Both the position numbers and the translations under genes were made by a program. Below are positions 6,001 through 64,000 of a stretch of 64,000 nt of DNA, piece by piece. Source of the DNA: Eledone cirrhosa. Taxonomy: Eukaryota. The stretch covers positions 403,310,001 to 403,374,000 of the forward strand of contig OZ024741.1 in the NCBI GenBank assembly GCA_964016885.1, given 5' to 3'. Position 1 is the first letter of the stretch. Each line of letters opens with the position of its first letter. A model generated the notes under the pieces. That model worked only from the letters and a program-made list of their open reading frames with translations. It ran no database searches and was not told the origin of the DNA.

Positions 6001-9000
6001 GTAGGGACTACTATCTTTAACCCAGGTAGGGACTACTATCTTTAACCCAGGTAGGGACTATCTTTAACCCAGGTAGGGACTACTATCTTTAACCCAGGTA
6101 GTGACTACTATCTTTAACCCAGGTAGGGACTACTATCTTTAAACCAGGTAGTGACTACTACCTTTAACCCAGGTAGTGACTACTATCTTTAACCCAGGTA
6201 GGGACTACTATCTTTAACCCAGGTAGGGACTACTATCTTTAACCCAGGTAGGGACTATCTTTAACCCAGGTAGGGACTACTATCTTTAACCCAGGTAGTG
6301 ACTACTATCTTTAACCCAGGTAGGGACTACTATCTTTAACCCAGGTAGTGACTACTATCTTTAACCCAGGTAGTGACTACTATCTTTAACCCAGGTAGGG
6401 ACTACTATCTTTAACCCAGGTAGGGACTACTATCTTTAACCCAGGTAGGGACTATCTTTAACCCAGGTAGGGACTACTATCTTTAACCCAGGTAGGGACT
6501 ACTATCTTTAACCCAGGTAGGGACTACTATCTTTAACCCAGGTAGGGACTACTATCTTTAACCCAGGTAGGGACTATCTTTAACCCAGGTAGGGACTACT
6601 ATCTTTAACCCAGGTAGGGACTACTATCTTTAACCCAGGTAGGGACTACTATCTTTAACCCAGGTAGGGACTACTATCTTTAACCCAGGTAGGGACTATC
6701 TTTAACCCAGGTAGGGACTACTATCTTTAACCCAGGTAGTGACTACTATCTTTAACCCAGGTAGGGACTACTATCTTTAACCCAGGTAGGGACTACTACC
6801 TTTAACCCAGGTAGGGACTACCTTTAACCCAGGTAGTGACTACTACCTTTAACCCAGGTAGGGACTACTATCTTTAACCCAGGTAGGGACTACTACCTTT
6901 AACCCAGGTAGGGACTACCTTTAACCCAGGTAGTGACTACTACCTTTAACCCAGGTAGGGACTACTATCTTTAACCCAGGTAGTGACTACTACCTTTAAC
7001 CCAGGTAGGGACTACTATCTTTAACCCAGGTAGGGACTACTACCTTTAACCCAGGTAGGGACTACCTTTAACCCAGGTAGTGACTACTATCTTTAAGCCA
7101 GGTAGTGACTACTATCTTTAACCCAGGTAGGGACTACTATCTTTAACCCAGGTAGGGACTACTATCTTTAACCCAGGTAGTGACTACTATCTTTAAGCCA
7201 GGTAGTGACTACTATCTTTAACCCAGGTAGGGACTACTATCTTTAAGCCAGGTAGTGACTACTACCTTTAACCCAGGTAGTGACTACTACCTTTAACCCA
7301 GGTAGGGACTACTACCTTTAACCCAGGTAGTGACTACTACCTTTAACCCAGGTAGTGACTACTACCTTTAACCCAGGTAGTGACTACTATCTTTAACCCA
7401 GGTAGGGACTACTATCTTTAACCCAGGTAGTGACTACTATCTTTAACCCAGGTAGGGACTACTATCTTTAACCCAGGTAGGGACTACTACCTTTAACCCA
7501 GGTAGGGACTACTATCTTTAACCCAGGTAGGGACTACTATCTTTAACCCAGGTAGTGACTACTATCTTTAACCCAGGTAGGGACTACTATCTTTAACCCA
7601 GGTAGTGACTACTATCTTTAACCCAGGTAGTGACTACTATCTTTAACCCAGGTAGTGACTACTATCTTTAACCCAGGTAGGGACTTCTATCTTTAACCAA
7701 GGTAGTGACTATCTTTAACCCTGGTAGTGACTACTATCTTTAACCCAGGTAGGGACTACTATCTTTAACCCAGGTAGTGACTACTACCTTTAACCCAGGT
7801 AGTGACTACTACCTTTAACCCAGGTAGTGACTACTATCTTTAAGCCAGGTAGTGACTACTATCTTTAACCCAGGTAGTGACTACTATCTTTAACCCAGGT
7901 ATCGACTACTATCTTTAAGCCAGGTAGTGACTACTATCTTTAACCCAAGTAGTGACTACTATCTTTAACCCAGGTAGTGACTACTATCTTTAACCCAAGT
8001 AGTGACTACTATCTTTAACCCAAGTAGTGACTACTATCTTTAACCCAAGTAGTGACTACTATCTTTAACCCAAGTAGTGACTACTATCTTTAACCCAGGT
8101 AGTGACTACTATCTTTAAGCCAGGTAGTGACTACTATCTTTAACCCAGGTAGTGACTACTATCTTTAACCCAAGTAGTGACTACTATCTTTAACCCAGGT
8201 AGTGACTACTATCTTTAAGCCAGGTAGTGACTTCTATCTTTAACCCAGGTAGTGACTACTATCTTTAACCCAGGTAGTGACTACTACCTTTAACCCAGGT
8301 AGGGACTACTATCTTTAACCCAGGTAGTGACTACTATCTTTAACCCAGGTAGTGACTACTACCTTTAACCCAGGTAGGGACTACTATCTTTAACCCAGGT
8401 AGTGACTACTATCTTTAACCCAGGTAGTGACTATCTTTAACCCAGGTAGTGACTACTATCTTTAACCCAGGTAGTGACTACTATCTTTAACCCAGGTAGT
8501 GACTATCTTTAACCCAGGTAGTGACTACTATCTTTAACCCAAGTAGTGACTACTATCTTTAACCCAGGTAGTGGCTACTATCTTTAAGCCAGGTAGTGAC
8601 TACTATCTTTAACCCAGGTAGTGACTACTATCTTTAACCCTGGTAGTGACTACTATCTTTAACCCAGGTAGGGACTACTATCTTTAACCCAGGTAGGGAC
8701 TACTATCTTTAACCCAGGTAGTGACTACTACCTTTAACCCTGGTAGTGACTACTATCTTTAACCCAGGTAGTGACTACTATCTTTAACCCAAGTAGTGAC
8801 TACTATCTTTAACCCAGGTAGTGACTACTACCTTTAACCCAGGTAGTGACTACTACCTTTAACCCAGGTAGGGACTACTATCTTTAACCCAGGTAGGGAC
8901 TACTATCTTTAACCCAGGTAGGGACTACTACCTTTAACCCAGGTAGTGACTACTATCTTTAACCCAGGTAGTGACTACTACCTTTAACCCAGGTAGGGAC

Positions 9001-12000
9001 TACTATCTTTAACCCAGGTAGTGACTACTATCTTTAACCCAGGTAGTGGCTACTATCTTTAACCCAGGTAGGGACTACTATCTTTAACCCAGGTAGTGAC
9101 TATCTTTAACCCAGGTAGTGACTACTATCTTTAACCCAGGTAGTGACTATCTTTAACCCAGGTAGTGACTACTATCTTTAACCCAGGTAGTGACTACTAC
9201 CTTTAACCCAGGTAGTGACTACTATCTTTAACCCAAGTAGTGACTACTATCTTTAACCCAGGTAGTGACTACTATCTTTAACCCAGGTAGGGACTACTAT
9301 CTTTAACCCAGGTAGTGACTACTATCTTTAACCCAAGTAGTGACTACTATCTTTAACCCAGGTAGTGACTACTACCTTTAACCCAGGTAGGGACTACTAT
9401 CTTTAACCCAGGTAGTGACTACTATCTTTAACCCAGGTAGGGACTACTATCTTTAACCCAGGTAGTGACTACTATCTTTAACCCAGGTAGTGACTACTAT
9501 CTTTAACCCAGGTAGGGACTACTATCTTTAACCCAGGTAGGGACTACTATCTTTAACCCAGGTAGTGACTACTATCTTTAACCCAGGTAGGGACTACTAT
9601 CTTTAACCCAGGTAGTGACTACTATCTTTAACCCAGGTAGGGACTACTATCTTTAACCCAGGTAGTGACTACTAGCTTTAACCCAGGTAGGGACTACTAT
9701 CTTTAACCCAGGTAGTGACTACTATCTTTAATCCAGGTAGGGACTACTATCTTTAACCCAGGTAGGGACTACTACCTTTAACCCAGGTAGGGACTACCTT
9801 TAACCCAGGTAGTGACTACTATCTTTAAGCCAGGTAGTGACTACTATCTTTAACCCAGGTAGTGACTACTATCTTTAACCCAGGTAGTGACTACTATCTT
9901 TAACCCAGGTAGTGACTACTATCTTTAACCCAGGTAGTGACTGTCTTTAACCCAGGTAGGGACTACTATCTTTAACCCAGGTAGGGACTACTATCTTTAA
10001 CCCAGGTAGGGACTACTATCTTTAACCCAGGTAGGGACTACTATCTTTAACCCAGGTAGTGACTACTATCTTTAACCCAGGTAGTGACTTCTATCTTTAA
10101 CCCAGGTAGGGACTACTATCTTTAACCCAGGTAGTGACTACTATCTTTAACCCAGGTAGTGACTACTATCTTTAACCCAGGTAGTGACTGTCTTTAACCC
10201 AGGTAGGGACTACTATCTTTAACCCAGGTAGGGACTACTATCTTTAACCCAGGTAGGGACTACTATCTTTAACCCAGGTAGTGACTACTATCTTTAACCC
10301 AGGTAGTGACTACTATCTTTAACCCAGGTAGTGACTGTCTTTAACCCAGGTAGGGACTACTATCTTTAACCCAGGTAGGGACTACTATCTTTAACCCAGG
10401 TAGGGACTACTATCTTTAACCCAGGTAGTGACTACTATCTTTAACCCAGGTAGGGACTACTATCTTTAATCCAGGTAGGGACTACTATCTTTAACCCAGG
10501 TAGGGACTACTATCTTTAACCCAGGTAGTGACTACTATCTTTAACCCAGGTAGTGACTTCTATCTTTAACCCAGGTAGGGACTACTATCTTTAACCCAGG
10601 TAGTGACTACTATCTTTAACCCAGGTAGTGACTACTATCTTTAACCCAGGTAGTGACTGTCTTTAACCCAGGTAGGGACTACTATCTTTAACCCAGGTAG
10701 GGACTACTATCTTTAACCCAGGTAGGGACTACTATCTTTAACCCAGGTAGTGACTACTATCTTTAACCCAGGTAGTGACTTCTATCTTTAACCCAGGTAG
10801 GGACTACTATCTTTAACCCAGGTAGTGACTACTATCTTTAACCCAGGTAGGGACTACTATCTTTAACCCAGGTAGTGACTACTACCTTTAACCCAGGTAG
10901 TGACTTCTATCTTTAACCCAGGTAGGGACTACTATCTTTAACCCAGGTAGGGACTACTATCTTTAACCCAGGTAGTGACTACTATCTTTAACCCAGGTAG
11001 TGACTACTATCTTTAACCCAGGTAAGGACTACTATCTTTAACCCAGGTAGTGACTACTACCTTTAACCCAGGTAGTGACTTCTATCTTTAACCCAGGTAG
11101 GGTCTACTATCTTTAACCCAGGTAGTGACTACTACCTTTAACCCAGGTAGGGACTACTATCTTTAACCCAGGTAGTGACTACTATCTTTAACCCAGGTAG
11201 GGACTACTATCTTTAACCCAGGTAGGGACTACTATCTTTAACCCAGGTAGGGACTACTACCTTTAACCCAGGTAGGGACTACTATCTTTAACCCAGGTAG
11301 TGACTTCAATCTTTAACCCAGGTAGGGACTACTATCTTTAACCCAGGTAGTGACTACTATCTTTAACCCAGGTAGGGACTACTACCTTTAACCCAGGTAG
11401 GGACTACTCTCTTTAACCCAGGTAGGGACTACTACCTTTAACCCAGGTAGGGACTACTATCTTTAACCCAGGTAGTGACTTCTATCTTTAACCCAGGTAG
11501 GGACTACTATCTTTAACCCAGGTAGGGACTACTATCTTTAACCCAGGTAGGGACTATCTTTAACCCAGGTAGGGACTACTATCTTTAACCCAGGTAGTGA
11601 CTACTATCTTTAACCCAGGTAGGGACTACTATCTTTAACCCAGGTAGTGACTACTATCTTTAACCCAGGTAGGGACTACTATCTTTAACCCAGGTAGGGA
11701 CTACTACCTTTAACCCAGGTAGTGACTACTATCTTTAACCCAGGTAGGGACTACTATCTTTAAGCCAGGTAGTGACTACTATCTTTAACCCAGGTAGGGA
11801 CTACTATCTTTAACCCAGGTAGTGACTACTATCTTTAAACCAGGTAGGGACTACTATCTTTAACCCAGGTAGTGACTACTATCTTTAACCCAGGTAGGGA
11901 CTACTATCTTTAACCCAGGTAGGGACTACTACCTTTAACCCAGGTAGGGACTACCTTTAACCCAGGTAGTGACTACTATCTTTAAGCCAGGTAGTGACTA

Positions 12001-15000
12001 CTATCTTTAACCCAGGTAGTGACTACTATCTTTAACCCAGGTAGGGACTACTACCTTTAACCCAGGTAGTGACTACTATCTTTAACCCAGGTAGGGACTA
12101 CTACCTTTAACCCAGGTAGGGACTACCTTTAACCCAGGTAGTGACTACTATCTTTAAGCCAGGTAGTGACTACTATCTTTAACCCAGGTAGGGACTACTA
12201 TCTTTAACCCAGGTAGGGACTACTACCTTTAACCCAGGTAGGGACTACCTTTAACCCAGGTAGTGACTACTATCTTTAAGCCAGGTAGTGACTACTATCT
12301 TTAACCCAGGTAGTGACTACTGTCTTTAACCCAGGTAGGGACTACTATCTTTAACCCAGGTAGGGACTTCTATCTTTAACCCAGGTAGTGACTACTACCT
12401 TTAACCCTGGTAGGGACTACTATCTTTAACCCAGGTAGGGACTACCACCTTTAACCCAGGTAGGGACTACCTTTAACCCAGGTAGTGACTTCTATCTTTA
12501 ACCCAGGTAGGGACTACTATATTTAACCCAGGTAGTGACTTCTATCTTTAACCCAGGTAGGGACTACTATCTTTAACCCAGGTAGGGACTACTATCTTTA
12601 ACCCAGGTAGTGACTACTATCTTTAACCCTGGTAGTGACTACTACCTTTAACCCAGGTAGTGACTATCTTTAACCCAGGTAGGGACTACTACCTTTAACC
12701 CAGGTAGTGACTTCTATCTTTAACCCAGGTAGGGTCTACTATCTTTAACCCAGGTAGTGACTACTACCTTTAACCCAGGTAGGGACTACTATCTTTAACC
12801 CAGGTAGTGACTACTATCTTTAACCCAGGTAGGGACTACTATCTTTAACCCAGGTAGGGACTACTACCTTTAACCCAGGTAGGGACTACTATCTTTAACC
12901 CAGGTAGTGACTACTATCTTTAACCCAGGTAGGGACTACTATCTTTAACCCAGGTAGGGACTACTATCTTTAACCCAGGTAGGGACTACTATCTTTAACC
13001 CAGGTAGGGACTACTATCTTTAACCCAGGTAGGGACTACTATCTTTAACCCAGGTAGGGACTACTACCTTTAACCCAGGTAGGGACTACTATCTTTAACC
13101 CAGGTAGTGACTACTATCTTTAACCCAGGTAGTGACTACTACCTTTAACCCAGGTAGGGACTACTATCTTTAACCCAGGTAGGGACTACTATCTTTAACC
13201 CAGGTAGGGACTACTATCTTTAACCCAGGTAGTGACTACTATCTTTAACCCAGGTAGGGACTACTACCTTTAACCCAGGTAGTGACTACTATCTTTAACC
13301 CTGGTAGTGACTAATATCTTTAACCCTGGTAGGGACTACTATCTTTAACCCAGGTAGGGACTACTACCTTTAACCCAGGTAGTGACTACTATCTTTAACC
13401 CAGGTAGTGACTACTACCTTTAACCCAGGTAGGGACTTCTATCTTTAACCCAGGTAGTGACTACTATCTTTAACCCAGATAGTGACTATCTTTAACCCAG
13501 GTAGGGACTACTATCTTTAACCCAGGTATCGACTACTATCTTTAACCCAGGTAGTGACTACTACCTTTAACCCAGGTAGGGACTTCTATCTTTAACCCAG
13601 GTAGTGACTACTATCTTTAACCCAGGTAGTGACTACTATCTTTAACCCTGGTAGTGACTAATATCTTTAACCCTGGTAGTGACTTCTATCTTTAACCCAG
13701 GTAGTGACTATCTTTAACCCAGGTAGGGACTACTATCTTTAACCCAGGTATCGACTACTATCTTTAACCCAGGTAGTGACTACTATCTTTAACCCAGGTA
13801 GGGACTACTATCTTTAACCCAGGTAGGGACTACTATCTTTAACCCAGGTATCGACTACTATCTTTAACCCAGGTAGGGACTACTATCTTTAACCCAGGTA
13901 GGGACTACTATCTTTAACCCAGGTAGTGACTACTATCTTTAACCCAGGTAGGGACTACTATCTTTAACCCAGGTAGTGGCTACTATCTTTAACCCAGGTA
14001 TCGACTACTATCTTTAACCCAGGTAGGGACTACTATCTTTAACCCAGGTATCGACTACTATCTTTAACCCAGGTAGGGACTACTATCTTTAACCCAGGTA
14101 GTGACTACTATCTTTAACCCAGGTATCGACTACTATCTTTAACCCAGGTAGTGACTACTATCTTTAACCCAGGTAGGGACTACTATCTTTAACCCAGGTA
14201 GGGACTACTATCTTTAACCCAGGTAGGGACTACTATCTTTAACCCAGGTAGGGACTACTATCTTTAAGCCAGGTAGTGACTACTATCTTTAACCAAGGTA
14301 GTGACTATCTTTAACCCTGGTAGTGACTACTATCTTTAACCCAGGTAGGGACTACTATCTTTAACCCAGGTAGTGACTACTACCTTTAACCCAGGTAGTG
14401 ACTACTACCTTTAACCCAGGTAGTGACTACTACCTTTAACCCAGGTAGGGACTACTATCTTTAACCCAGGTAGGGACTACTATCTTTAACCCTGGTAGTG
14501 ACTACTATCTTTAACCCAGGTAGGGACTACTATCTTTAACCCTGGTAGTGACTACTACCTTTAACCCAGGTAGTGACTACTATCTTTAACCCAGGTAGTG
14601 ACTACTATCTTTAACCCAGGTAGTGACTACTATCTTTAACCCTGGTAGTGACTACTATCTTTAACCCAAGTAGGGACTACTATCTTTAACCCAGGTAGGG
14701 ACTACTATCTTTAACCCAGGTAGTGACTACTACCTTTAACCCAGGTAGTGACTACTACCTTTAACCCAGGTAGGGACTACTATCTTTAACCCAGGTAGGG
14801 ACTACTATCTTTAACCCAGGTAGGGACTACTATCTTTAACCCAGGTAGGGACTACTATCTTTAACCCAAGTAGTGACTACTATCTTTAACCCAGGTAGGG
14901 ACTACTACCTTTAACCCAGGTAGGGACTACTATCTTTAACCCAGGTAGGGACTACTATCTTTAACCCAGGTAGGGACTACTATCTTTAACCCAGGTAGGG

Positions 15001-18000
15001 ACTACTATCTTTAACCCAAGTAGGGACTACTATCTTTAACCCAGGTAGGGACTACTATCTTTAACCCAAGTAGTGACTACTATCTTTAACCCAGGTAGGG
15101 ACTACTACCTTTAACCCAGGTAGGGACAACTATCTTTAACCCAGGTAGTGACTACTATCTTTAACCCAGGTAGGGACTACTATCTTTAACCCAGATAGTG
15201 ACTACTATCTTTAACCCAAGTAGTGACTACTATCTTTAACCCAGGTAGGGACTACTATCTTTAACCCAGGTAGTGACTACTACCTTTAACCCAGGTAGTG
15301 ACTATCTTTAACCCAGGTAGGGACTACTATCTTTAACCCAGGTAGGGACTACTATCTTTAACCCAAGTAGGGACTACTATCTTTAACCCTGGTAGTGACT
15401 ACTATCTTTAACCCAGGTAGTGACTACTACCTTTAACCCAGGTAGTGACTATCTTTAACCCAGGTAGGGACTACTATCTTTAACCCAGGTAGTGACTACT
15501 ATCTTTAACCCAAGTAGGGACTACTATCTTTAACCCTGGTAGTGACTACTATCTTTAACCCAGGTAGTGACTACTATCTTTAACCCAGGTAGGGACAACT
15601 ATCTTTAACCCAGGTAGTGACTACTACCTTTAACCCAGGTAGTGACTACTACCTTTAACCCAGGTAGGGACTACTATCTTTAACCCAGGTAGGGACTACT
15701 ATCTTTAACCCAGGTAGGGACTACTACCTTTAACCCAGGTAGTGACTACTATCTTTAACCCAGGTAGGGACTACTATCTTTAACCCAGGTAGGGACTACT
15801 ATCTTTAACCCAGGTAGGGACTATCTTTAACCCAGGTAGGGACTACTATCTTTAACCCAGGTAGTGACTACTATCTTTAACCCAGGTAGGGAATACTATC
15901 TTTAACCCAAGTAGGGACTACTATCTTTAACCCAGGTAGGGACTACTACCTTTAACCCAGGTAGTGACTACTATCTTTAACCCAGGTAGTGACTACTATC
16001 TTTAACCCAGGTAGGGACTACTATCTTTAACCCAGGTAGGGACTACTATCTTTAACCCAGGTAGTGTCTACTATCTTTAACCCAGGTAGTGACTACTATC
16101 TTTAACCCAGGTAGTGACTACTATCTTTAACCCAGGTAGGGACTACTACCTTTAACCCAGGTAGTGACTACTATCTTTAACCCAGGTAGAGACTACTATC
16201 TTTAACCCAGGTAGTGTCTACTATCTTTAACCCAGGTAGTGTCTACTATCTTTAACCCAGGTAGGGACTACTATCTTTAACCCAGGTAGTGTCTACTATC
16301 TTTAACCCAGGTAGTGACTACTATCTTTAACCCAGGTAGGGACTACTATCTTTAACCCAGGTAGGGACTACTATCTTTAACCCAGGTAGGGACTATCTTT
16401 AACCCAGGTAGGGACTACTATCTTTAACCCAGGTAGGGACTACTATCTTTAACCCAGGTAGGGACTACTATCTTTAACCCAGGTAGGGACTACTACCTTT
16501 AACCCAGGTAGTGACTACTATCTTTAACCCAGGTAGGGACTACTATCTTTAACCCAGGTAGTGACTACTATCTTTAACCCAGGTACGGACTACTATCTTT
16601 AACCCAGGTAGTGACTACTATCTTTAACCCAGGTAGGGACTACTATCTTTAACCCAGGTAGTGACTACTATCTTTAACCCAGGTAGTGACTACTATCTTT
16701 AACCCAGGTAGGGACTACTATCTTTAACCCAGGTAGGGACTACTATCTTTAACCCAGGTAGTGACTACTATCTTTAACCCAGGTAGGGACTACTATCTTT
16801 AACCCAGGTAGTGACTACTATCTTTAACCCAGGTAGGGACTACTATCTTTAACCCAGGTAGTGACTACTAGCTTTAACCCAGGTAGGGACTACTATCTTT
16901 AACCCAGGTAGTGACTACTATCTTTAACCCAGGTAGGGACTACTATCTTTAACCCAGGTAGGGACTACTACCTTTAACCCAGGTAGGGACTACCTTTAAC
17001 CCAGGTAGTGACTACTATCTTTAAGCCAGGTAGTGACTACTATCTTTAACCCAGGTAGTGACTACTATCTTTAACCCAGGTAGTGACTGTCTTTAACCCA
17101 GGTAGGGACTACTATCTTTAACCCAGGTAGGGACTACTATCTTTAACCCAGGTAGGGACTACTATCTTTAACCCAGGTAGGGACTACTATCTTTAACCCA
17201 GGTAGTGACTACTATCTTTAACCCAGGTAGTGACTTCTATCTTTAACCCAGGTAGGGACTACTATCTTTAACCCAGGTAGTGACTACTATCTTTAACCCA
17301 GGTAGGGACTACTATCTTTAACCCAGGTAGTGACTACTACCTTTAACCCAGGTAGTGACTTCTATCTTTAACCCAGGTAGGGACTACTATCTTTAACCCA
17401 GGTAGTGACTTCTATCTTTAACCCAGGTAGGGACTACTATCTTTAACCCAGGTAGGGACTACTATCTTTAACCCAGGTAGTGACTACTATCTTTAACCCA
17501 GGTAGTGACTACTATCTTTAACCCAGGTAGGGACTACTATCTTTAACCCAGGTAGTGACTACTACCTTTAACCCAGGTAGTGACTTCTATCTTTAACCCA
17601 GGTAGGGTCTACTATCTTTAACCCAGGTAGTGACTACTACCTTTAACCCAGGTAGGGACTACTATCTTTAACCCAGGTAGTGACTACTATCTTTAACCCA
17701 GGTAGGGACTACTATCTTTAACCCAGGTAGGGACTACTATCTTTAACCCAGGTAGGGACTACTACCTTTAACCCAGGTAGGGACTACTATCTTTAACCCA
17801 GGTAGTGACTTCTATCTTTAACCCAGGTAGGGACTACTATCTTTAACCCAGGTAGTGACTACTATCTTTAACCCAGGTAGGGACTACTACCTTTAACCCA
17901 GGTAGGGACTACTCTCTTTAACCCAGGTAGGGACTACTACCTTTAACCCAGGTAGGGACTACTATCTTTAACCCAGGTAGTGACTTCTATCTTTAACCCA

Positions 18001-20831
18001 GGTAGGGACTACTATCTTTAACCCAGGTAGGGACTACTATCTTTAACCCAGGTAGGGACTATCTTTAACCCAGGTAGGGACTACTATCTTTAACCCAGGT
18101 AGTGACTACTATCTTTAACCCTGGTAGTGACTACTATCTTTAACCCTGGTAGTGACTAATATCTTTAACCCTGGTAGTGACTTCTATCTTTAACCCAGGT
18201 AGTGACTATCTTTAACCCAGGTAGGGACTACTATCTTTAACCCAGGTATCGACTACTATCTTTAACCCAGGTAGTGACTACTACCTTTAACCCAGGTAGT
18301 GACTATCTTTAACCCAGGTATCGACTACTATCTTTAACCCAGGTAGGGACTACTATCTTTAACCCAGGTAGGGACTACTATCTTTAACCCAGGTAGTGAC
18401 TACTATCTTTAACCCAGGTAGGGACTACTATCTTTAACCCAGGTAGTGGCTACTATCTTTAACCCAGGTATCGACTACTATCTTTAACCCAGGTAGGGAC
18501 TACTATCTTTAACCCAGGTATCGACTACTATCTTTAACCCAGGTAGGGACTACTATCTTTAACCCAGGTAGTGACTACTATCTTTAACCCAGGTATCGAC
18601 TACTATCTTTAACCCAGGTAGTGACTACTATCTTTAACCCAGGTAGGGACTACTATCTTTAACCCAGGTAGGGACTACTATCTTTAACCCAGGTAGGGAC
18701 TACTATCTTTAACCCAGGTAGGGACTACTATCTTTAACCCAGGTAGTGAATACTATCTTTAACCCAGGTAGGGACTACTATCTTTAACCCAGGTAGGGAC
18801 TACTATCTTTAACCCAGGTAGTGACTACTATCTTTAACCCAGGTAGGGACTACTATCTTTAACCCAGGTAGGGACTACTATCTTTAACCCAGGTAGGGAC
18901 TACTATCTTTAACCCAGGTAGGGACTACTATCTTTAACCCAGGTAGTGACTACTATCTTTAACCCAGGTATCGACTACTATCTTTAACCCAGGTAGTGAC
19001 TACTATCTTTAACCCAGGTAGGGACTACTATCTTTAACCCAGGTAGGGACTACTATCTTTAACCCAGGTAGGGACTACTATCTTTAACCCAGGTAGGGAC
19101 TACTATCTTTAAGCCAGGTAGTGACTACTATCTTTAACCCAGGTAGGGACTACTATCTTTAACCCAGGTAGGGACTACTATCTTTAACCCAGGTAGGGAC
19201 TACTATCTTTAAGCCAGGTAGTGACTACTATCTTTAAGCCAGGTAGTGACTACTATCTTTAACCAAGGTAGTGACTATCTTTAACCCTGGTAGTGACTAC
19301 TATCTTTAACCCAGGTAGGGACTACTATCTTTAACCCAGGTAGTGACTACTACCTTTAACCCAGGTAGTGACTACTATCTTTAAGCCAGGTAGTGACTAC
19401 TATCTTTAACCCAAGTAGTGACTACTATCTTTAACCCAGGTAGTGACTACTACCTTTAACCCAGGTAGTGACTACTATCTTTAAGCCAGGTAGGGACTAC
19501 TATCTTTAACCCAAGTAGGGACTACTATCTTTAACCCAGGTAGTGACTACTATCTTTAACCCTGGTAGTGACTACTATCTTTAACCCAAGTAGTGACTAC
19601 TATCTTTAACCCAGGTAGTGACTACTACCTTTAACCCAGGTAGTGACTACTACCTTTAACCCAGGTAGGGACTACTATCTTTAACCCAGGTAGGGACTAC
19701 TATCTTTAACCCAGGTAGGGACTACTACCTTTAACCCAGGTAGTGACTACTATCTTTAACCCAGGTAGGGACTACTATCTTTAACCCAGGTAGGGACTAC
19801 TATCTTTAACCCAGGTAGGGACTATCTTTAACCCAGGTAGGGACTACTATCTTTAACCCAGGTAGTGACTACTATCTTTAACCCAGGTAGGGACTACTAT
19901 CTTTAACCCAAGTAGTGACTACTATCTTTAACCCAGGTAGGGACTACTATCTTTAACCCAGGTAGGGACTACTATCTTTAACCCAGGTAGGGACTTCTAT
20001 CTTTAACCCAGGTAGGGACTACTATCTTTAACCCAGGTAGTGACTACTATCTTTAACCCAGGTAGTGACTACTATCTTTAACCCAGGTAGTGACTACTAT
20101 CTTTAACCCAGGTAGGGACTACTATCTTTAACCCAGGTAGGGACTACTATCTTTAACCCAGGTAGGGACTTCTATCTTTAACCCAGGTAGGGACTACTAT
20201 CTTTAACCCAGGTAGTGACTACTATCTTTAACCCAGGTAGGGACTACTATCTTTAACCCAGGTAGGGACTACTATCTTTAACCCAGGTAGGGACTATCTT
20301 TAACCCAGGTAGGGAATACTATCTTTAACCCAAGTAGGGACTACTATCTTTAACCCAGGTAGGGACTACTACCTTTAACCCAGGTAGTGACTACTATCTT
20401 TAACCCAGGTAGTGACTACTATCTTTAACCCAGGTAGTGACTACTATCTTTAACCCAGGTAGGGACTACTATCTTTAACCCAGGTAGGGACTACTATCTT
20501 TAACCCAGGTAGGGACTTCTATCTTTAACCCAGGTAGGGACTACTATCTTTAACCCAGGTAGTGACTACTATCTTTAACCCAGGTAGGGACTACTATCTT
20601 TAACCCAGGTAGGGACTACTATCTTTAACCCAGGTAGGGACTACTATCTTTAACCCAGGTAGGGACTACTACCTTTAACCCAGGTAGTGACTACTATCTT
20701 TAACCCAGGTAGGGACTACTATCTTTAAGCCAGGTAGTGACTACTATCTTTAACCCAGGTAGGGACTACTATCTTTAACCCAGGTAGTGACTACTATCTT
20801 TAACCCAGGTAGGGACTACTATCTTTAACCC
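1..20831. repeat. 25-bp tandem satellite array, left arm (runs off the window start); consensus GACTACTATCTTTAACCCAGGTAG(T/G)
   Basis: Head-to-tail copies of the 25-mer seen on every line. Common variants: T/G at the last base, TATCT>TACCT, CCAGG>CCAAG or CCTGG, 22-bp units lacking one CTA, GACTTC, GACTATTA. Stop codons (TAA, TAG) occur in every unit on both strands, so it is non-coding. Confidence 0.99.
20820..20831 (+). repeat. Left copy of the 12-bp target-site duplication TATCTTTAACCC
   Basis: The satellite breaks after TATCTTTAACCC at 20831 and resumes at 21291 with the same 12 nt. The paralogous empty site at 16644-16655 has the same order of flanking T/G variants and only one copy of this 12-mer. 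Confidence 0.85.
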
Positions 20832-21026
20832 TGGACGCGTCTGAAAGGACTGAGGTCGGGCACCTTTCTCTCTGGCCAACAACTGGTCCGTTTCTTCCGA
20901 TATCATTTCGGAAGAAGGATCAGGATGGAGAGAGAGGTGCTGCACCCCAGCCGTTTCTATGAAAGATGGGTGAAAGTGGCGAGAATGGCCCGTGTGAATG
21001 GGCCTTCACTCTACATCAGACTATAG
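20832..21026 (+). pseudogene. Truncated C-terminal 64 aa of a retrotransposon ORF2-like protein: WTRLKGLRSGTFLSGQQLVRFFRYHFGRRIRMEREVLHPSRFYERWVKVARMARVNGPSLYIRL*
   Basis: Manual translation: open from the first inserted base (TGG) to TAG at 21024-21026. No upstream start; an in-frame TAA lies in the satellite at 20826-20828. The basic/aromatic pattern W-x-R ... F ... R-I-R-x-E ... F-x-x-x-W ... V-x-G-x-x-L resembles the tail that follows the zinc knuckle in Tx1-type ORF2 proteins. Confidence 0.72.
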
Positions 21027-21290
21027 GTGAGGAAGATGAAAGACCAAGGGAGCACCCCTTCTCTGTGCTCCTGAGGAGAAGGGTTGCACACTTTTTTCGG
21101 GGGTGTGTGCGACTCCCCAAGGCGCCTCCTCTCTATTGAGGATTTTGTTAAAAATTTTATTTTTTGTTATATCTTATTTTATTTTTATATTTTGTTATTG
21201 CCTCCTCCTTATTGAGGACGCCTTTTTGTGTAAACTCCCCCCTTTGTACTTGTCCCACTTTTGATGCCCTAGTGGCAAATAAAAGAAATA
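21027..21290 (+). other. 3' UTR of the inserted element, with several stem-loops and a T-rich tract
   Basis: Lies between the stop codon and the right TSD. GGAGCAC (21049-55) pairs with GTGCTCC (21065-71). A 19-nt near-duplicate GCCTCCTCnnTATTGAGGA occurs at 21124-21142 and 21200-21218. T-rich tract at about 21143-21199. Confidence 0.7.
21278..21283 (+). promoter_or_regulatory. Canonical polyadenylation signal AATAAA at the element 3' end
   Basis: AATAAA ends 7 nt before the right TSD, as is typical of L1/Tx1-clade 3' ends. Confidence 0.7.
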
Positions 21291-21302
21291 TATCTTTAAC
21301 CC
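21291..21302 (+). repeat. Right copy of the 12-bp target-site duplication TATCTTTAACCC
   Basis: Satellite resumes mid-monomer, repeating the 12 nt that precede the insert. Confidence 0.85.
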
Positions 21303-24300
21303 AGGTAGTGACTACTATCTTTAACCCAGGTAGTGACTACTATCTTTAACCCAGGTAGGGACTACTATCTTTAACCCAGGTAGGGACTACTATCTTTAAC
21401 CCAGGTAGTGACTACTATCTTTAACCCAGGTAGGGACTACTATCTTTAACCCAGGTAGTGACTACTATCTTTAACCCAGGTAGGGACTACTATCTTTAAC
21501 CCAGGTAGTGACTACTAGCTTTAACCCAGGTAGGGACTACTATCTTTAACCCAGGTAGTGACTACTATCTTTAACCCAGGTAGGGACTACTATCTTTAAC
21601 CCAGGTAGGGACTACTACCTTTAACCCAGGTAGGGACTACCTTTAACCCAGGTAGTGACTACTATCTTTAAGCCAGGTAGTGACTACTATCTTTAACCCA
21701 GGTAGTGACTACTATCTTTAACCCAGGTAGTGACTGTCTTTAACCCAGGTAGGGACTACTATCTTTAACCCAGGTAGGGACTACTATCTTTAACCCAGGT
21801 AGGGACTACTATCTTTAACCCAGGTAGGGACTACTATCTTTAACCCAGGTAGTGACTACTATCTTTAACCCAGGTAGTGACTTCTATCTTTAACCCAGGT
21901 AGGGACTACTATCTTTAACCCAGGTAGTGACTACTATCTTTAACCCAGGTAGGGACTACTATCTTTAACCCAGGTAGTGACTACTACCTTTAACCCAGGT
22001 AGTGACTACTATCTTTAACCCAGGTAGGGACTACTATCTTTAACCCAGGTAGGGACTACTATCTTTAACCCAGGTAGGGACTACTATCTTTAACCCAGGT
22101 AGGGACTACTATCTTTAACCCAGGTAGGGACTACTATCTTTAACCCAGGTAGTGACTACTATCTTTAACCCAGGTAGGGACTACTATCTTTAACCCAGGT
22201 AGTGACTTCTATCTTTAACCCAGGTAGGGACTACTATCTTTAACCCAGGTAGGGACTACTATCTTTAACCCAGGTAGGGACTACTATCTTTAACCCAGGT
22301 AGGGACTACTATCTTTAACCCAGTTAGTGACTTCTATCTTTAACCCAGGTAGGGACTACTATCTTTAACCCAGGTAGTGACTACTATCTTTAACCCAGGT
22401 AGTGACTTCTATCTTTAACCCAGGTAGGGACTACTATCTTTAACCCAGGTAGGGACTACTATCTTTAACCCAGGTAGGGACTACTATCTTTAACCCAGGT
22501 AGGGACTACTATCTTTAACCCAGGTAGGGACTACTATCTTTAACCCAGGTAGGGACTACTATCTTTAACCCAGGTAGGGACTACTATCTTTAACCCAGGT
22601 AGTGACTTCTATCTTTAACCCAGGTAGGGACTACTATCTTTAACCCAGGTAGGGACTACTATCTTTAACCCAGGTAGGGACTACTATCTTTAACCCAGGT
22701 AGTGACTACTATCTTTAACCCAGGTAGGGACTACTATCTTTAACCCAGGTAGTGACTACTACCTTTAACCCAGGTAGTGACTTCTATCTTTAACCCAGGT
22801 AGGGTCTACTATCTTTAACCCAGGTAGTGACTACTACCTTTAACCCAGGTAGGGACTACTATCTTTAACCCAGGTAGTGACTACTATCTTTAACCCAGGT
22901 AGGGACTACTATCTTTAACCCAGGTAGGGACTACTATCTTTAACCCAGGTAGGGACTACTACCTTTAACCCAGGTAGGGACTACTATCTTTAACCCAGGT
23001 AGTGACTTCAATCTTTAACCCAGGTAGGGACTACTATCTTTAACCCAGGTAGTGACTACTATCTTTAACCCAGGTAGGGACTACTACCTTTAACCCAGGT
23101 AGGGACTACTCTCTTTAACCCAGGTAGGGACTACTACCTTTAACCCAGGTAGGGATTACTATCTTTAACCCAGGTAGTGACTTCTATCTTTAACCCAGGT
23201 AGGGACTACTATCTTTAACCCAGGTAGGGACTACTATCTTTAACCCAGGTATGGACTATCTTTAACCCAGGTAGGGACTACTATCTTTAACCCAGGTAGT
23301 GACTACTATCTTTAACCCAGGTAGGGACTACTATCTTTAACCCAGGTAGGGACTACTACCTTTAACCCAGGTAGTGACTACTATCTTTAACCCAGGTAGT
23401 GACTACTATCTTTAACCCAGGTAGTGACTACTATCTTTAACCCAGGTAGTGACTACTATCTTTAACCCAGGTAGGGACTACTATCTTTAACCCAGGTAGT
23501 GACTACTATCTTTAACCCAGGTAGGGACTACTATCTTTAACCCAGGTAGTGACTACTATCTTTAACCCAGGTAGGGACTACTATCTTTAACCCAGGTAGT
23601 GACTACTATCTTTAACCCAGGTAGGGACTACTATCTTTAACCCAGGTAGGGACTACTATCTTTAACCCAGGTAGTGACTACTATCTTTAACCCAGGTAGG
23701 GACTACTATCTTTAACCCAGGTAGTGACTACTATCTTTAACCCAGGTAGGGACTACTATCTTTAACCCAGGTAGGGACTACTATCTTTAACCCAGGTAGG
23801 GACTACTATCTTTAACCCAGGTAGGGACTACTACCTTTAACCCAGGTAGTGACTACTATCTTTAACCCAGGTAGGGACTACTATCTTTAAGCCAGGTAGT
23901 GACTACTATCTTTAACCCAGGTAGGGACTACTATCTTTAAACCAGGTAGGGACTACTATCTTTAACCCAGGTAGTGACTACTATCTTTAACCCAGGTAGG
24001 GACTACTATCTTTAACCCAGGTAGTGACTACTATCTTTAACCCAGGTAGTGACTACTATCTTTAACCCAGGTAGGGACTACTATCTTTAACCCAGGTAGG
24101 GACTACTATCTTTAACCCAGGTAGTGACTACTATCTTTAACCCAGGTATGGACTACTATCTTTAACCCAGGTAGTGACTACTATCTTTAACCCAGGTAGG
24201 GACTACTATCTTTAACCCAGGTAGTGACTACTATCTTTAACCCAGGTAGTGACTACTATCTTTAACCCAGGTAGTGACTGTCTTTAACCCAGGTAGGGAC

Positions 24301-26429
24301 TACTATCTTTAACCCAGGTAGGGACTACTATCTTTAACCCAGGTAGGGACTACTATCTTTAACCCAGGTAGGGACTACTATCTTTAACCCAGGTAGTGAC
24401 TACTATCTTTAACCCAGGTAGTGACTTCTATCTTTAACCCAGGTAGGGACTACTATCTTTAACCCAGGTAGTGACTACTATCTTTAACCCAGGTAGGGAC
24501 TACTATCTTTAACCCAGGTAGTGACTACTACCTTTAACCCAGGTAGTGACTTCTATCTTTAACCCAGGTAGGGACTACTATCTTTAACCCAGGTAGTGAC
24601 TTCTATCTTTAACCCAGGTAGGGACTACTATCTTTAACCCAGGTAGGGACTACTATCTTTAACCCAGGTAGTGACTACTATCTTTAACCCAGGTAATGAC
24701 TACTATCTTTAACCCAGGTAGGGACTACTATCTTTAACCCAGGTAGTGACTACTACCTTTAACCCAGGTAGTGACTTCTATCTTTAACCCAGGTAGGGTC
24801 TACTATCTTTAACCCAGGTAGTGACTACTACCTTTAACCCAGGTAGGGACTACTATCTTTAACCCAGGTAGTGACTACTATCTTTAACCCAGGTAGGGAC
24901 TACTATCTTTAACCCAGGTAGGGACTACTATCTTTAACCCAGGTAGGGACTACTACCTTTAACCCAGGTAGGGACTACTATCTTTAACCCAGGTAGTGAC
25001 TTCTATCTTTAACCCAGGTAGGGACTACTATCTTTAACCCAGGTAGTGACTACTATCTTTAACCCAGGTCGGGACTACTACCTTTAACCCAGGTAGGGAC
25101 TACTCTCTTTAACCCAGGTAGGGACTACTACCTTTAACCCAGGTAGGGACTACTATCTTTAACCCAGGTAGTGACTTCTATCTTTAACCCAGGTAGGGAC
25201 TAATATCTTTAACCCTGGTAGTGACTACTACCTTTAACCCAGGTAGTGACTATCTTTAACCCAGGTAGTGACTACTACCTTTAACCCAGGTAGTGACTAC
25301 TATCTTTAACCCAGGTAGTGACTACTACCTTTAACCCAGGTAGTGACTATCTTTAACCCAGGTAGGGACTACTATCTTTAACCCAGGTAGTGACTATCTT
25401 TAACCCAGGTATCGACTACTATCTTTAACCCAGGTAGGGACTACTACCTTTAACCCAGGTAGGGACTAATATCTTTAACCCTGGTAGTGACTACTATCTT
25501 TAACCCAGGTATCGACTACTATCTTTAACCCAGGTAGGGACTACTACCTTTAACCCAGGTAGGGACTAATATCTTTAACCCTGGTAGTGACTACTACCTT
25601 TAACCCAGGTAGTGACTACTATCTTTAACCCAGGTAGGGACTACTACCTTTAACCCAGGTAGGGACTACTCTCTTTAACCCAGGTAGGGACTACTACCTT
25701 TAACCCAGGTAGGGACTACTATCTTTAACCCAGGTAGGGACTACTATCTTTAACCCTGGTAGTGACTACTACCTTTAACCCAGGTATCGACTACTATCTT
25801 TAACCCAGGTAGGGACTACTACCTTTAACCCTGGTAGTGACTACTACCTTTAACCCAGGTAGTGACTACTACCTTTAACCCAGGTAGGGACTACTATCTT
25901 TAACCCAGGTAGTGACTACTACCTTTAACCCAGGTAGGGACTACTATCTTTAACCCAGGTAGTGACTACTATCTTTAACCCAGGTAGTGACTACTGTCTT
26001 TAACCCAGGTAGGGACTACTATCTTTAACCCAGGTAGGGACTACTATCTTTAACCCAGGTAGGGACTACTATCTTTAACCCAGGTAGTGACTACTATCTT
26101 TAACCCAGGTAGGGACTACTACCTTTAACCCAGGTAGGGACTACTCTCTTTAACCCAGGTAGGGACTACTACATTTAACCCAGGTAGGGACTACTATCTT
26201 TAACCCAGGTATCGACTACTATCTTTAACCCAGGTAGGGACTACTATCTTTAACCCAGGTATCGACTACTATCTTTAACCCAGGTAGGGACTACTATCTT
26301 TAACCCAGGTAGTGACTACTATCTTTAACCCAGGTATCGACTACTATCTTTAACCCAGGTAGGGACTACTATCTTTAACCCAGGTATCGACTACTATCTT
26401 TAACCCAGGTAGGGACTACTATCTTTAAC

Positions 26430-27360
26430 CCAGGTAGGGACTACTATCTTTAACCCAAGTAGTGACTACTATCTTTAACCCAGGTAGTGACTACTATCTT
26501 TAACCCAAGTAGGGACTACTATCTTTAACCCAAGTAGTGACTACTATCTTTAACCCAGGTAGGGACTACTATCTTTAACCCAAGTAGGGACTACTATCTT
26601 TAACCCAGGTAGTGACTACTATCTTTAACCCAGGTAGGGACTACTATCTTTAACCCAAGTAGTGACTACTATCTTTAACCCAGGTAGTGACTACTATCTT
26701 TAACCCAAGTAGGGACTACTATCTTTAACCCAAGTAGTGACTACTATCTTTAACCCAGGTAGGGACTACTATCTTTAACCCAAGTAGGGACTACTATCTT
26801 TAACCCAGGTAGGGACTACTATCTTTAACCCAGGTAGGGACTACTATCTTTAACCCAAGTAGTGACTACTATCTTTAACCCAGGTAGTGACTACTATCTT
26901 TAACCCAAGTAGGGACTACTATCTTTAACCCAAGTAGTGACTTCTATCTTTAACCCAGGTAGGGACTACTATCTTTAACCCAAGTAGGGACTACTATCTT
27001 TAACCCAGGTAGTGACTACTATCTTTAACCCAGGTAGGGACTACTATCTTTAACCCAAGTAGTGACTACTATCTTTAACCCAGGTAGTGACTACTATCTT
27101 TAACCCAAGTAGGGACTACTATCTTTAACCCAAGTAGTGACTACTATCTTTAACCCAGGTAGGGACTACTATCTTTAACCCAAGTAGGGACTACTATCTT
27201 TAACCCAGGTAGGGACTACTATCTTTAACCCAGGTAGGGACTACTATCTTTAACCCAAGTAGTGACTACTATCTTTAACCCAGGTAGTGACTACTATCTT
27301 TAACCCAAGTAGGGACTACTATCTTTAACCCAAGTAGTGACTTCTATCTTTAACCCAGGT
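26430..27360. repeat. 8-monomer (200-bp) higher-order repeat marked by CCAAG units, with a 400-bp super-period
   Basis: The CCAAG pattern recurs at about 26451, 26651, 26851, 27051 and 27251. GACTTC variants at about 26941 and 27341 are 400 bp apart. Confidence 0.8.
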
Positions 27361-30300
27361 AGGGACTACTATCTTTAACCCAGGTAGGGACTACTATCTT
27401 TAACCCAGGTAGTGACTACTATCTTTAACCCAGGTAGGGACTACTATCTTTAACCCAGGTAGGGACTACTATCTTTAACCCAGGTAGGGACTACTATCTT
27501 TAACCCTGGTAGTGACTACTATCTTTAACCCTGGTAGTGACTACTATCTTTAACCCAGGTAGGGACTACTATCTTTAACCCAGGTAGTGACTACTATCTT
27601 TAACCCAGGTAGGGACTACTATCTTTAACCCAGGTAGTGACTACTATCTTTAACCCAGGTAGGGACTACTATCTTTAACCCAGGTAGTGACTACTATCTT
27701 TAACCCAGGTAGGGACTACTATCTTTAACCCAGGTAGTGACTACTATCTTTAACCCAGGTAGGGACTACTATCTTTAACCCAGGTAGTGACTACTATCTT
27801 TAACCCAGGTAGGGACTACTATCTTTAACCCAGGTAGGGACTACTATCTTTAACCCAGGTAGTGACTACTATCTTTAACCCAGGTAGGGACTACTATCTT
27901 TAACCCAGGTAGTGACTACTATCTTTAACCCAGGTAGGGACTACTATCTTTAACCCAGGTAGGGACTACTATCTTTAACCCAGGTAGGGACTACTATCTT
28001 TAACCCTGGTAGTGACTACTATCTTTAACCCTGGTAGTGACTACTATCTTTAACCCAGGTAGGGACTACTATCTTTAACCCAGGTAGTGACTACTATCTT
28101 TAACCCAGGTAGGGACTACTATCTTTAACCCAGGTAGTGACTACTATCTTTAACCCAGGTAGGGACTACTATCTTTAACCCAGGTAGGGACTACTATCTT
28201 TAACCCAGGTAGGGACTACTATCTTTAACCCTGGTAGTGACTACTATCTTTAACCCTGGTAGTGACTACTATCTTTAACCCAGGTAGGGACTACTATCTT
28301 TAACCCAGGTAGTGACTACTATCTTTAACCCTGGTAGTGACTACTATCTTTAACCCTGGTAGTGACTACTATCTTTAACCCAGGTAGTGACTACTACCTT
28401 TAACCCAGGTAGGGACTACTATCTTTAACCCAGGTAGTGACTACTATCTTTAACCAAGGTAGTGACTACTATCTTTAACCCAGGTAGGGACTACTACCTT
28501 TAACCCTGGTAGTGACTACTACCTTTAACCCAGGTATCGACTACTATCTTTAACCCAGGTAGGGACTACTACCTTTAACCCTGGTAGTGACTACTACCTT
28601 TAACCCAGGTAGTGACTACTACCTTTAACCCAGGTAGGGACTACTATCTTTAACCCAGGTAGTGACTACTACCTTTAACCCAGGTAGGGACTACTATCTT
28701 TAACCCAGGTAGTGACTACTATCTTTAACCCAGGTAGTGACTACTATCTTTAACCCAGGTAGGGACTACTATCTTTAACCCAGGTAGGGACTACTATCTT
28801 TAACCCAGGTAGGGACTACTATCTTTAACCCAGGTAGTGACTACTATCTTTAACCCAGGTAGGGACTACTACCTTTAACCCAGGTAGGGACTACTCTCTT
28901 TAACCCAGGTAGGGACTACTACCTTTAACCCAGGTAGGGACTACTATCTTTAACCCAGGTATCGACTACTATCTTTAACCCAGGTAGGGACTACTATCTT
29001 TAACCCAGGTATCGACTACTATCTTTAACCCAGGTAGGGACTACTATCTTTAACCCAGGTAGGGACTACTATCTTTAACCCAGGTAGTGACTACTATCTT
29101 TAACCCAAGTAGTGACTACTATCTTTAACCCAGGTAGGGACTACTATCTTTAACCCAGGTAGGGACTACTATCTTTAACCCAAGTAGTGACTACTATCTT
29201 TAACCCAGGTATCGACTACTATCTTTAACCCAGGTAGGGACTACTATCTTTAACCCAGGTAGGGACTACTATCTTTAACCCAAGTAGTGACTACTATCTT
29301 TAACCCAGGTAGTGACTACTATCTTTAACCCAGGTAGGGACTACTATCTTTAACCCAGGTAGGGACTACTATCTTTAACCCAGGTAGGGACTACTATCTT
29401 TAACCCAGGTAGGGACTACTATCTTTAACCCAAGTAGTGACTACTATCTTTAACCCAGGTAGTGACTACTATCTTTAACCCAAGTAGGGACTACTATCTT
29501 TAACCCAAGTAGTGACTACTATCTTTAACCCAGGTAGGGACTACTATCTTTAACCCAGGTAGTGACCATCTTTAACCCAGGTAGGGACTACTATCTTTAA
29601 CCCAGGTAGGGACTACTATCTTTAACCCAGGTATCGACTACTATCTTTAACCCAGGTAGGGACTACTATCTTTAACCCAGGTATCGACTACTATCTTTAA
29701 CCCAGGTAGGGACTACTACCTTTAACCCAGGTAGGGACTAATATCTTTAACCCTGGTAGTGACTACTACCTTTAACCCAGGTAGTGACTACTATCTTTAA
29801 CCCAGGTAGGGACTACTACCTTTAACCCAGGTAGGGACTACTCTCTTTAACCCAGGTAGGGACTACTACCTTTAACCCAGGTAGGGACTACTCTCTTTAA
29901 CCCAGGTAGGGACTACTACCTTTAACCCAGGTAGGGACTACTATCTTTAACCCAGGTAGGGACTACTATCTTTAACCCTGGTAGTGACTACTACCTTTAA
30001 CCCAGGTATCGACTACTATCTTTAACCCAGGTAGGGACTACTACCTTTAACCCTGGTAGTGACTACTACCTTTAACCCAGGTAGTGACTACTACCTTCAA
30101 CCCAGGTAGGGACTACTATCTTTAACCCAGGTAGTGACTACTACCTTTAACCCAGGTAGGGACTACTATCTTTAACCCAGGTAGTGACTACTATCTTTAA
30201 CCCAGGTAGTGACTACTATCTTTAACCCAGGTAGGGACTACTATCTTTAACCCAGGTAGGGACTACTATCTTTAACCCAGGTAGGGACTACTATCTTTAA

Positions 30301-30679
30301 CCCAGGTAGTGACTACTATCTTTAACCCAGGTAGGGACTACTACCTTTAACCCAGGTAGGGACTACTCTCTTTAACCCAGGTAGGGACTACTACCTTTAA
30401 CCCAGGTAGGGACTACTATCTTTAACCCAGGTATCGACTACTATCTTTAACCCAGGTAGGGACTACTATCTTTAACCCAGGTATCGACTACTATCTTTAA
30501 CCCAGGTAGGGACTACTATCTTTAACCCAGGTAGTGACTACTATCTTTAACCCAGGTATCGACTACTATCTTTAACCCAGGTAGGGACTACTATCTTTAA
30601 CCCAGGTATCGACTACTATCTTTAACCCAGGTAGGGACTACTATCTTTAACCCAGGTAGTGACTACTATCTTTAACCCA

Positions 30680-53300: not shown

Positions 53301-53400
53301 GGACTACTATCTTTAACCCAGGTAGTGACTACTATCTTTAAACCAGGTAGGGACTACTATCTTTAACCCTGGTAGTGACTACTACCATTAACCAAGGTAG
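41390..53400. repeat. Tandem duplication of a ~5.9-6.1-kb block (about 41390-47315 and 47315-53400)
   Basis: Rare variants paired in the same order: CCAGCTAG 42755/48682 (5927), CCCACGTAG 44485/50413 (5928), TACCATTAACCAAGG 47283/53387 (6104). Confidence 0.85.
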
Positions 53401-63600: not shown

Positions 63601-64000
63601 TATCTTTAACCCAGGTAGTGACTACTATCTTTAACCCAGGTAGGGACTACTATCTTTAACCCAGGTAGGGACTACTATCTTTAACCCAGGTATCGACTAC
63701 TATCTTTAACCCAGGTAGGGACTACTATCTTTAACCCAGGTAGGGACTACTATCTTTAACCCAGGTAGGGACTACTATCTTTAACCCAGGTAGGGACTAC
63801 TATCTTTAACCAAGGTAGGGATTTCTATCTTTAACCCAGGTAGTGACTACTATCTTTAACCCAGGTAGTGACTACTATCTTTAACCCAGGTAGTGACTAC
63901 TACCTTTAACCCAGGTAGTGACTACTATCTTTAACCCAGGTAGGGACTACTATCTTTAACCCAGGTAGGGACTACTATCTTTAACCAAGGTAGGGATTTC

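What the first reader, a model, noticed from the sequence alone, without database searches (positions are those of the whole stretch)
20820..21302. Single 5'-truncated Tx1/L1-like retrotransposon in a satellite, with a TSD ending in telomere-like TAACCC: candidate repeat-targeting element
Seen: a 459-bp insert with a startless 64-aa frame, stop, 3' UTR, AATAAA, A-rich end and a 12-bp TSD TATCTTTAACCC. Established: 5' truncation plus TSD plus A-rich 3' end is the signature of target-primed reverse transcription. The Tx1 clade contains many sequence-specific families that target repeats (Tx1L/Tx2L, Kibi, Koshi, Dewa, Keno, Mutsu). Inference: the peptide looks like a Tx1 ORF2 tail. The TSD does not start with the A-run of the canonical L1 TTTT/AA site, so this may be a family with its own preference for this satellite or for TAACCC motifs. 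One copy cannot establish specificity. The frame is uninterrupted and the TSD perfect, suggesting a young insertion.
Basis: partly seen in the sequence, partly recalled or inferred. Interest (0 to 1): 0.75.

Follow-up and report, generated by a model that had tools for sequence, protein, structure and literature searches.

The report
GATA-repeat-targeting LINE landed in a satellite
This is one short, recent copy of a jumping gene with about 2,000 near-identical copy ends in this genome, most of which sit in GATA (TATC) repeats, likely because its cutting enzyme reads the six letters CTATCT; it landed in this satellite at such a site, and the telomere-like TAACCC beside it is not what the family seeks.

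Summary
The insert is real. Window 20832-21290 is the last 459 nt of a 5.7-kb, two-ORF, APE+RT non-LTR retrotransposon, with one mismatch. Its 3' end occurs 1,981 times in the genome.

Targeting of this satellite or of TAACCC is refuted. Only 1 of 1,981 ends joins TATCTTTAACC, and the 235-kb array holds one insertion (0.16-0.41 expected).

The family is sequence-specific for the other half of the duplication. 1,522 ends (77%) run into TATCTAT and 191 into TATATAT, and 21 of 30 consecutive copies have the TATC motif at the 5' side too (background 1.1%). At off-repeat sites like this one the duplication starts at TATCT, and the target base before it is C in 29 of 34 (background 29%). The likely nick is 5'-AGATA/G-3', and every satellite unit carries CTATCT.

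There is no poly(A) tail; the A-rich end is the element's fixed terminus. In a 25-bp array a perfect 12-bp duplication is defined only modulo 25 and does not date the insertion.

The scan noted this GATA-targeting family before on other DNA of this genome. I found no paper on a (GATA)n-targeting L1/Tx1 family. Tx1 membership was not tested by a tree.

The parts
20832..21290 (+). 5'-truncated copy: last 459 nt of a 5,719-nt two-ORF non-LTR retrotransposon (natural full copy L031:3266-8984)
   Evidence: one mismatch, at 21114
20832..21026 (+). C-terminal 64 codons of ORF2 (residues 1082-1145) and TAG stop; no start, no promoter, cannot move by itself
21027..21290 (+). 3' UTR (264 nt), AATAAA at 21278, fixed end AAAGAAA-TA, no poly(A)
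20820..20831 (+). 5' copy of the target-site duplication TATCTTTAACCC, preceded by the C (20819) of the CTATCT target motif
21291..21302 (+). 3' copy of the duplication; its first five letters TATCT are what most of the family's ends run into
1..64000 (+). host satellite, 25-bp unit GACTACTATCTTTAACCCAGGTAG(G/T); part of a 235.5-kb array (G000:C2:403,306,186-403,541,730, about 9,150 units), about 13 Mb from the contig end

Best explanation
The insert is a recent, 5'-truncated copy of an abundant two-ORF LINE whose copies sit mostly in (TATC)n/(GATA)n microsatellites, and it likely entered this satellite because each unit carries the short site CTATCT that the element's endonuclease is inferred to nick. 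Shown: the element's structure, copy number, junction sequences, and the C before TATCT in the target. Inferred: ORF2's APE domain nicks the bottom strand at 5'-AGATA/G-3'. The freed 3' end primes reverse transcription on an RNA that ends in or just past AAAGAAA-NN and likely reads on into UAUC repeats of its donor site, which would pair with the primer. The top strand is cut some 6-21 nt downstream (12 here), reverse transcription stopped after 459 nt, and repair left the duplication. Long (TATC)n runs are used far more often per site than lone CTATCT sites. The satellite's 8,400 lone sites predict about 0.4 insertions and one is seen.
For: Intact full-length relatives: 13 of 39 best-match loci are full length and 9 of the 13 have both ORFs open (593 and 1,145 aa), with 2-36 differences per 5.7 kb. 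ORF2 hits Pfam RVT_1 (E 5e-26) and Exo_endo_phos (E 5e-8); best solved relative is human L1 ORF2p (E 3e-48), well ahead of R2. 3' ends: 1,981; followed by NN-TATCTAT 1,522, NN-TATATAT 191, NN-TATCT-not-A 98 (pattern with a final H). 5' flanks: CTATCT or TATCTAT within 30 nt in 21 of the first 30 copies on C1 and 35 of 39 best-match copies, against 150 of 13,320 background windows. Off-repeat class: 55 of the 98 were resolved; 34 show a duplication starting at TATCT next to the 5' end, so TATCT pre-existed in the target. The base before it is C in 29 of 34 against 113 of 390 in background (p about 1e-11), and 22 of 27 without TATC-preceded sites and this copy (p 2e-8). The element's last two letters match the target's in only 2 of 34 and track subfamily, so the C is a property of the target, not of the RNA. 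Expected insertions in the array 0.41 per site or 0.16 by length; observed 1.
Against: No enzyme assay and no RNA. Part of the 3' (TATC)n may be copied from RNA, so 77% is not purely target. 21 of 55 resolved off-repeat copies were dropped because no clean duplication met the rule. About 10% of ends lie in (TA)n and 6 of 30 5' flanks lack the motif, so specificity is loose; some 5' boundaries may be subfamily switches rather than true ends. Copies are not all independent (stacks L093-L095, L075-L076). The background is only 200 kb from 20 stretches, six of them near the array. The nick could lie a few bases inside TATCT.
Confidence: 0.82

Rival explanations
1. Site choice comes mainly from pairing of a (UAUC)n RNA tail with DNA breaks or nicks made by a weakly specific endonuclease; the tail also seeds or lengthens the microsatellites.
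For: AATAAA lies only 7 nt before the element end, so normal cleavage would fall in the flanking repeat (inference from the usual 10-30 nt spacing, recalled). A few 3' junctions carry TATC letters absent from the 5' copy of the site (L091/L154, L183, L047; read by eye, not counted). Such pairing is proposed for RTE and other LINEs (PMC6007223, passages).
Against: The C before TATCT (29 of 34) is not matched by the element's last letter, which is A or T in 31 of 34, so simple pairing does not explain it. 191 ends in (TA)n show A at the fourth place, which must come from the target.
Confidence: 0.13
2. The family prefers this 25-bp satellite or telomere-like TAACCC motifs.
For: This one copy's duplication ends in TAACCC. 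Telomere-specific Tx1 elements exist (Tx1-1_ACar, cited in PMC10088271, passages).
Against: 1 of 1,981 ends joins TATCTTTAACC. Two ends in the genome have TAACCC within 12 nt. 0 of 69 sampled 3' flanks hold TTAGGG and 1 of 69 holds TAACCC. One insertion in about 9,150 units. No (TAACCC)2 in the window.
Confidence: 0.01
3. The piece was not retrotransposed here but brought in by recombination, break repair or an assembly error.
For: The duplication is ambiguous modulo 25, and no laid contig bridged either satellite junction (contigs cannot show absence).
Against: It ends exactly at the family's 3' terminus, in register with C-TATCT. It has no flank from a donor site and one private base change. 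Its duplication length is typical of the family.
Confidence: 0.04

Closest known systems
Kibi (TC)n and Koshi (TTC)n of teleosts; crocodilian Tx1-1_Crp group on (TTCC)n/(TTTC)n (PMC4494074: passages and section 15; PMC3812793: passages)
   Same: APE-type non-LTR retrotransposons that insert preferentially into one pyrimidine-rich microsatellite.
   Different: The target here is (TATC)n, with spill-over into (TA)n and lone CTATCT sites; the host is likely an octopod (closest named protein Argonauta hians, 67% over the RT region). Kinship with Kibi/Koshi was not tested.
Tx1-1_ACar, telomere-specific Tx1 of the green anole (named in PMC10088271, passages only)
   Different: This family does not join telomeric repeats.
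Human L1 (ORF2p, PDB 8sxt)
   Same: APE-RT ORF2 aligned over residues 8-857 (E 3e-48); 5' truncation; variable duplications; by recall, L1 nicks 5'-TTTT/AA with a purine after the cut and pairs its tail with the primer.
   Different: No poly(A) at insertions; ORF1 has a CCHC knuckle; the inferred site is AGATA/G.
L1-Tx1 families of Octopus vulgaris (PMC13282606, passages: 13 recently active families, 421 insertions)
   Same: Recently active L1-Tx1 LINEs in an octopus.
   Different: The word 'target' has 0 occurrences in that paper's main text; whether these families are homologous was not tested.

Membership tests
APE-type non-LTR retrotransposon (LINE) | ORF2 with APE endonuclease and reverse transcriptase | tested here: met
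   Pfam PF03372 and PF00078 above cut-off; motifs GDWN 140, SDH 225-227, YADD 686 present
APE-type non-LTR retrotransposon (LINE) | Common 3' end, variable 5' truncation, variable duplications | tested here: met
   (lengths 72-5,802 nt among the 30 consecutive copies; duplications 6-29 nt in 34 copies)
APE-type non-LTR retrotransposon (LINE) | No LTRs or terminal inverted repeats | tested here: met
   no terminal direct or inverted repeat of 16 nt or more in L031:3266-8984
Tx1 clade | RT groups with named Tx1 families on a tree | not testable with these tools
   no named Tx1 protein was returned (atlas gave no answer); only L1 above R2 and unnamed turtle and fish proteins at 34-42%
Tx1 clade | Two ORFs, ORF1 with a CCHC zinc knuckle (feature recalled, from no call) | tested here: met
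   C-x2-C-x4-H-x4-C at ORF1 322-335; Pfam zf-CCHC only weak, E 0.05, below cut-off
Tx1 clade | Target-sequence preference (frequent, PMC4494074) | tested here: met
Kibi/Koshi | Insertion into (TC)n or (TTC)n | tested here: not met
   ends run into TATCT or TATAT in 30 of 30 consecutive copies
Telomere-specific Tx1 (Tx1-1_ACar type) | Insertion into (TTAGGG)n/(TAACCC)n | tested here: not met
Satellite-specific retrotransposon | Enrichment in the satellite | tested here: not met
   1 observed against 0.16-0.41 expected
Processed pseudogene | Best match to a host gene, poly(A) tail | tested here: not met
   matches are the 3' end of the retrotransposon, without poly(A)

The most novel reading that the evidence does not exclude
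An undescribed, still mobile L1/Tx1-type lineage has an APE endonuclease that reads a six-base site and nicks 5'-AGATA/G-3'. It uses read-through (UAUC)n in place of poly(A) as its priming tail, so it homes to GATA microsatellites, rebuilds its own target with every insertion, and reaches satellites such as this one only through embedded CTATCT sites.
Probability: 0.5. Interest if true: 0.55.

Novelty: new variant of a known kind. Interest (0 to 1): 0.38.

Why it matters
This copy is inert, and its place in the satellite needs no special explanation. The family matters more. How APE-type elements target microsatellites is called poorly understood in a 2013 review (PMC3812793, passage), and here a young family with intact ORFs, some 2,000 ends and readable off-repeat sites gives a testable cut site. 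It also cautions that a telomere-like word in a single duplication says nothing about targeting.

Tried and rejected
TAACCC, telomere and satellite targeting were rejected. A Pfam scan of the 64-aa peptide alone gave no family. A tree with named Tx1 families was not possible, as none was returned; the atlas gave no answer. An exact empty-site twin of the insertion site in the array was found only at 50 nt a side (47 matches) and not at 100 nt or more, so the duplication could not be fixed that way. Run search: no RNA holder listed. Laying 4 of 24 runs showed the family and the family base at 21114, but no listed piece crossed a satellite junction, which is no evidence either way. Paper searches for a GATA/TATC-targeting Tx1: searches gave 0 papers; searches listed none by title or abstract start. 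Kojima and Fujiwara 2004, Repbase and Dfam were not seen; the target labels in Fig. 3 of PMC4494074 and its supplements could not be read and may hold such a family.

Full report
Observation. The window is one 25-bp tandem array, broken once, by a 459-bp insert at 20832-21290 between two copies of TATCTTTAACCC. The frame, stop, 3' UTR and AATAAA are as described. The peptide alone hits no Pfam family.

What the insert is. A search of the own genome (3.0 Gb) scored 40 of 887 candidates and found 39 other places that match all 459 nt. The 29 others fetched differ from the window copy at one base, which is private to the window copy. Extending 39 loci gave 13 full-length copies of 5,719-5,744 nt; 9 have both ORFs open (593 and 1,145 aa), and pairs differ at 2-36 sites. 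ORF2 has APE and RT domains and a weak zf-RVT, and ORF1 a CCHC knuckle. The window peptide is ORF2 1082-1145. The best solved relative is human L1 ORF2p; the closest named protein is from Argonauta hians, so the host is likely an octopod. There are no terminal repeats. It is a young LINE of the L1/Tx1 kind; the Tx1 label rests on ORF1, on behaviour and on recall, not on a tree.

Is the satellite or TAACCC the target? No. The 22-nt 3' end occurs 1,981 times (a 35-nt version 1,906 times). The exact junction with TATCTTTAACCC occurs once, and it is the only TATCTTTAACC among the 98 ends of its class. TAACCC lies within 12 nt of an end twice; the other case is a different minisatellite, entered at C-TATAT. 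I read the whole array, 235.5 kb and about 9,150 units: this is its only insert. Expected numbers are 0.16 by length and 0.41 by CTATCT site. The array holds 4,145 of the genome's 4,786 exact 34-mers of the satellite; I did not locate most of the rest. The window has no (TAACCC)2 and lies about 13 Mb from the contig end.

The real target. After the end and two subfamily-linked letters, 1,522 of 1,981 ends read TATCTAT, 191 TATATAT and 98 TATCT then not A. A wider pattern for TAT-not-C found 246, which includes most of the TATATAT class; about 115 ends stay unclassified. A 3' repeat could be an RNA tail, so I checked 5' flanks. Of the first 30 copies on C1, 21 have CTATCT or TATCTAT within 30 nt, 3 a TA run and 6 neither; of 39 best-match copies, 35 have the motif; background windows have it in 150 of 13,320. 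The microsatellites were therefore mostly there before insertion.

The minimal site. Sites like the window's, where TATCT is not followed by A, let the duplication be read. I resolved 55 of the 98. In 34 a duplication of 6 nt or more begins at TATCT and ends within -12 to +8 of the element's 5' end; 21 did not meet this rule and were dropped. Lengths are 6-29, median 14.5. The target base before TATCT is C in 29, T in 3 and A in 2, against 29% C in 200 kb of background. Without the six TATC-preceded sites and the window copy it is 22 of 27. The element's own last two letters equal the target's in 2 of 34. The satellite unit reads TAC-TATCT-TTAACCC, a full match.

Mechanism. Shown: structure, junctions and the C-TATCT bias. 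Inferred from target-primed reverse transcription (established knowledge): a bottom-strand nick at AGATA/G primes cDNA synthesis, a second cut 12 nt downstream makes the duplication, and synthesis stopped after 459 nt. Target choice is attributed mainly to the endonuclease in PMC4494074 (passage). Also inferred: since AATAAA lies 7 nt from the end and no copy read has poly(A), the RNA likely runs on into the donor's UAUC repeats, which could pair with the primer. A few junctions with extra TATC letters fit this (anecdotal). The nick may lie a few bases inside TATCT.

Caveats on this copy. In a 25-bp array a 12-bp duplication equals a 13-bp deletion, and the 12-mer is shared by 2,158 units of the window, so its perfection dates nothing. 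One mismatch in 459 nt does indicate a recent event. No empty-site twin was found, and no laid contig bridged the junctions.

Comparison with what is known. Tx1 families on (TC)n, (TTC)n, (TTCC)n and (TTTC)n are described (PMC4494074: passages and section 15). A 2013 review lists ACAY, AC, TC, TTC and TAA targets but not GATA (PMC3812793: passages). A telomere-specific Tx1 is cited in PMC10088271 (passages). PMC4640811, PMC6007223 and PMC13282606 were seen as passages. Searches showed no GATA-targeting family; Repbase, Dfam, the 2004 paper and one set of supplements were not seen. The scan's own notes (consulted after my reading was formed) describe the same GATA-targeting family on other DNA of this genome; none lies near this window. 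They are unchecked notes and are not counted as support.

Verdict. This is an ordinary off-repeat insertion of a family that is a new target variant of a known kind. Interest 0.38.

Noticed in passing
L031, L032, L042, L046-L048, L050, L051, L056, L059-L061, L066 (5' junctions): All 13 full-length copies have TCTAT or TATCT directly before the 5' end, even in satellites that are not (TATC)n (L047, L061); the RNA may start inside the upstream repeat and carry it along.
   Followed up: no
L093-L095 (C1:42,268,250-42,269,581), L051/L052, L034, L043, L067: Copies stack head to tail, each new one entering the TATC run left at an older copy's junction; neighbours are often 80-93% identical sister subfamilies.
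   Followed up: partly
L047, L054/L055, L061, L064, L075, L084, L090, L166, L184, L187, L231; G000:C17:4.79-4.84 Mb (eight ends): Many unrelated minisatellites with a TCTAT/CTATC/CTATAT word hold insertions; the C17 cluster has eight ends in 45 kb, all at TATCTTTAT.
   Followed up: no
element 3' end, window 21289-21290: The last two letters (TA, CA, CT, CC, TC) track identity to L031 (medians 99.7, 98.9 and 96.8 for TA, CA and CT). Several CT copies have a 5' part only about 87% alike and start GATGGACACATG after CTAC, suggesting recombinant subfamilies.
   Followed up: partly
G000:C2:403,306,186-403,541,730: The 235.5-kb satellite array has recent higher-order duplications (57 of 300 random 1-kb stretches have an exact twin). 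About 640 further exact 34-mers lie outside it, all on the + strand, two at C2:218.06 Mb.
   Followed up: partly
window 20832-21295, runs X4 and X5: Runs under other organism codes hold near-identical pieces (X5: 133 of 133 and 143 of 144 letters; X4 at depth about 2.5); close relatives, labels, diet or contamination were not told apart.
   Followed up: no
L031:3639-3793 (ORF1): ORF1 has an Asn-rich (AAC)n-like stretch and a long Pro/Thr/Gln-rich C-terminal half.
   Followed up: no
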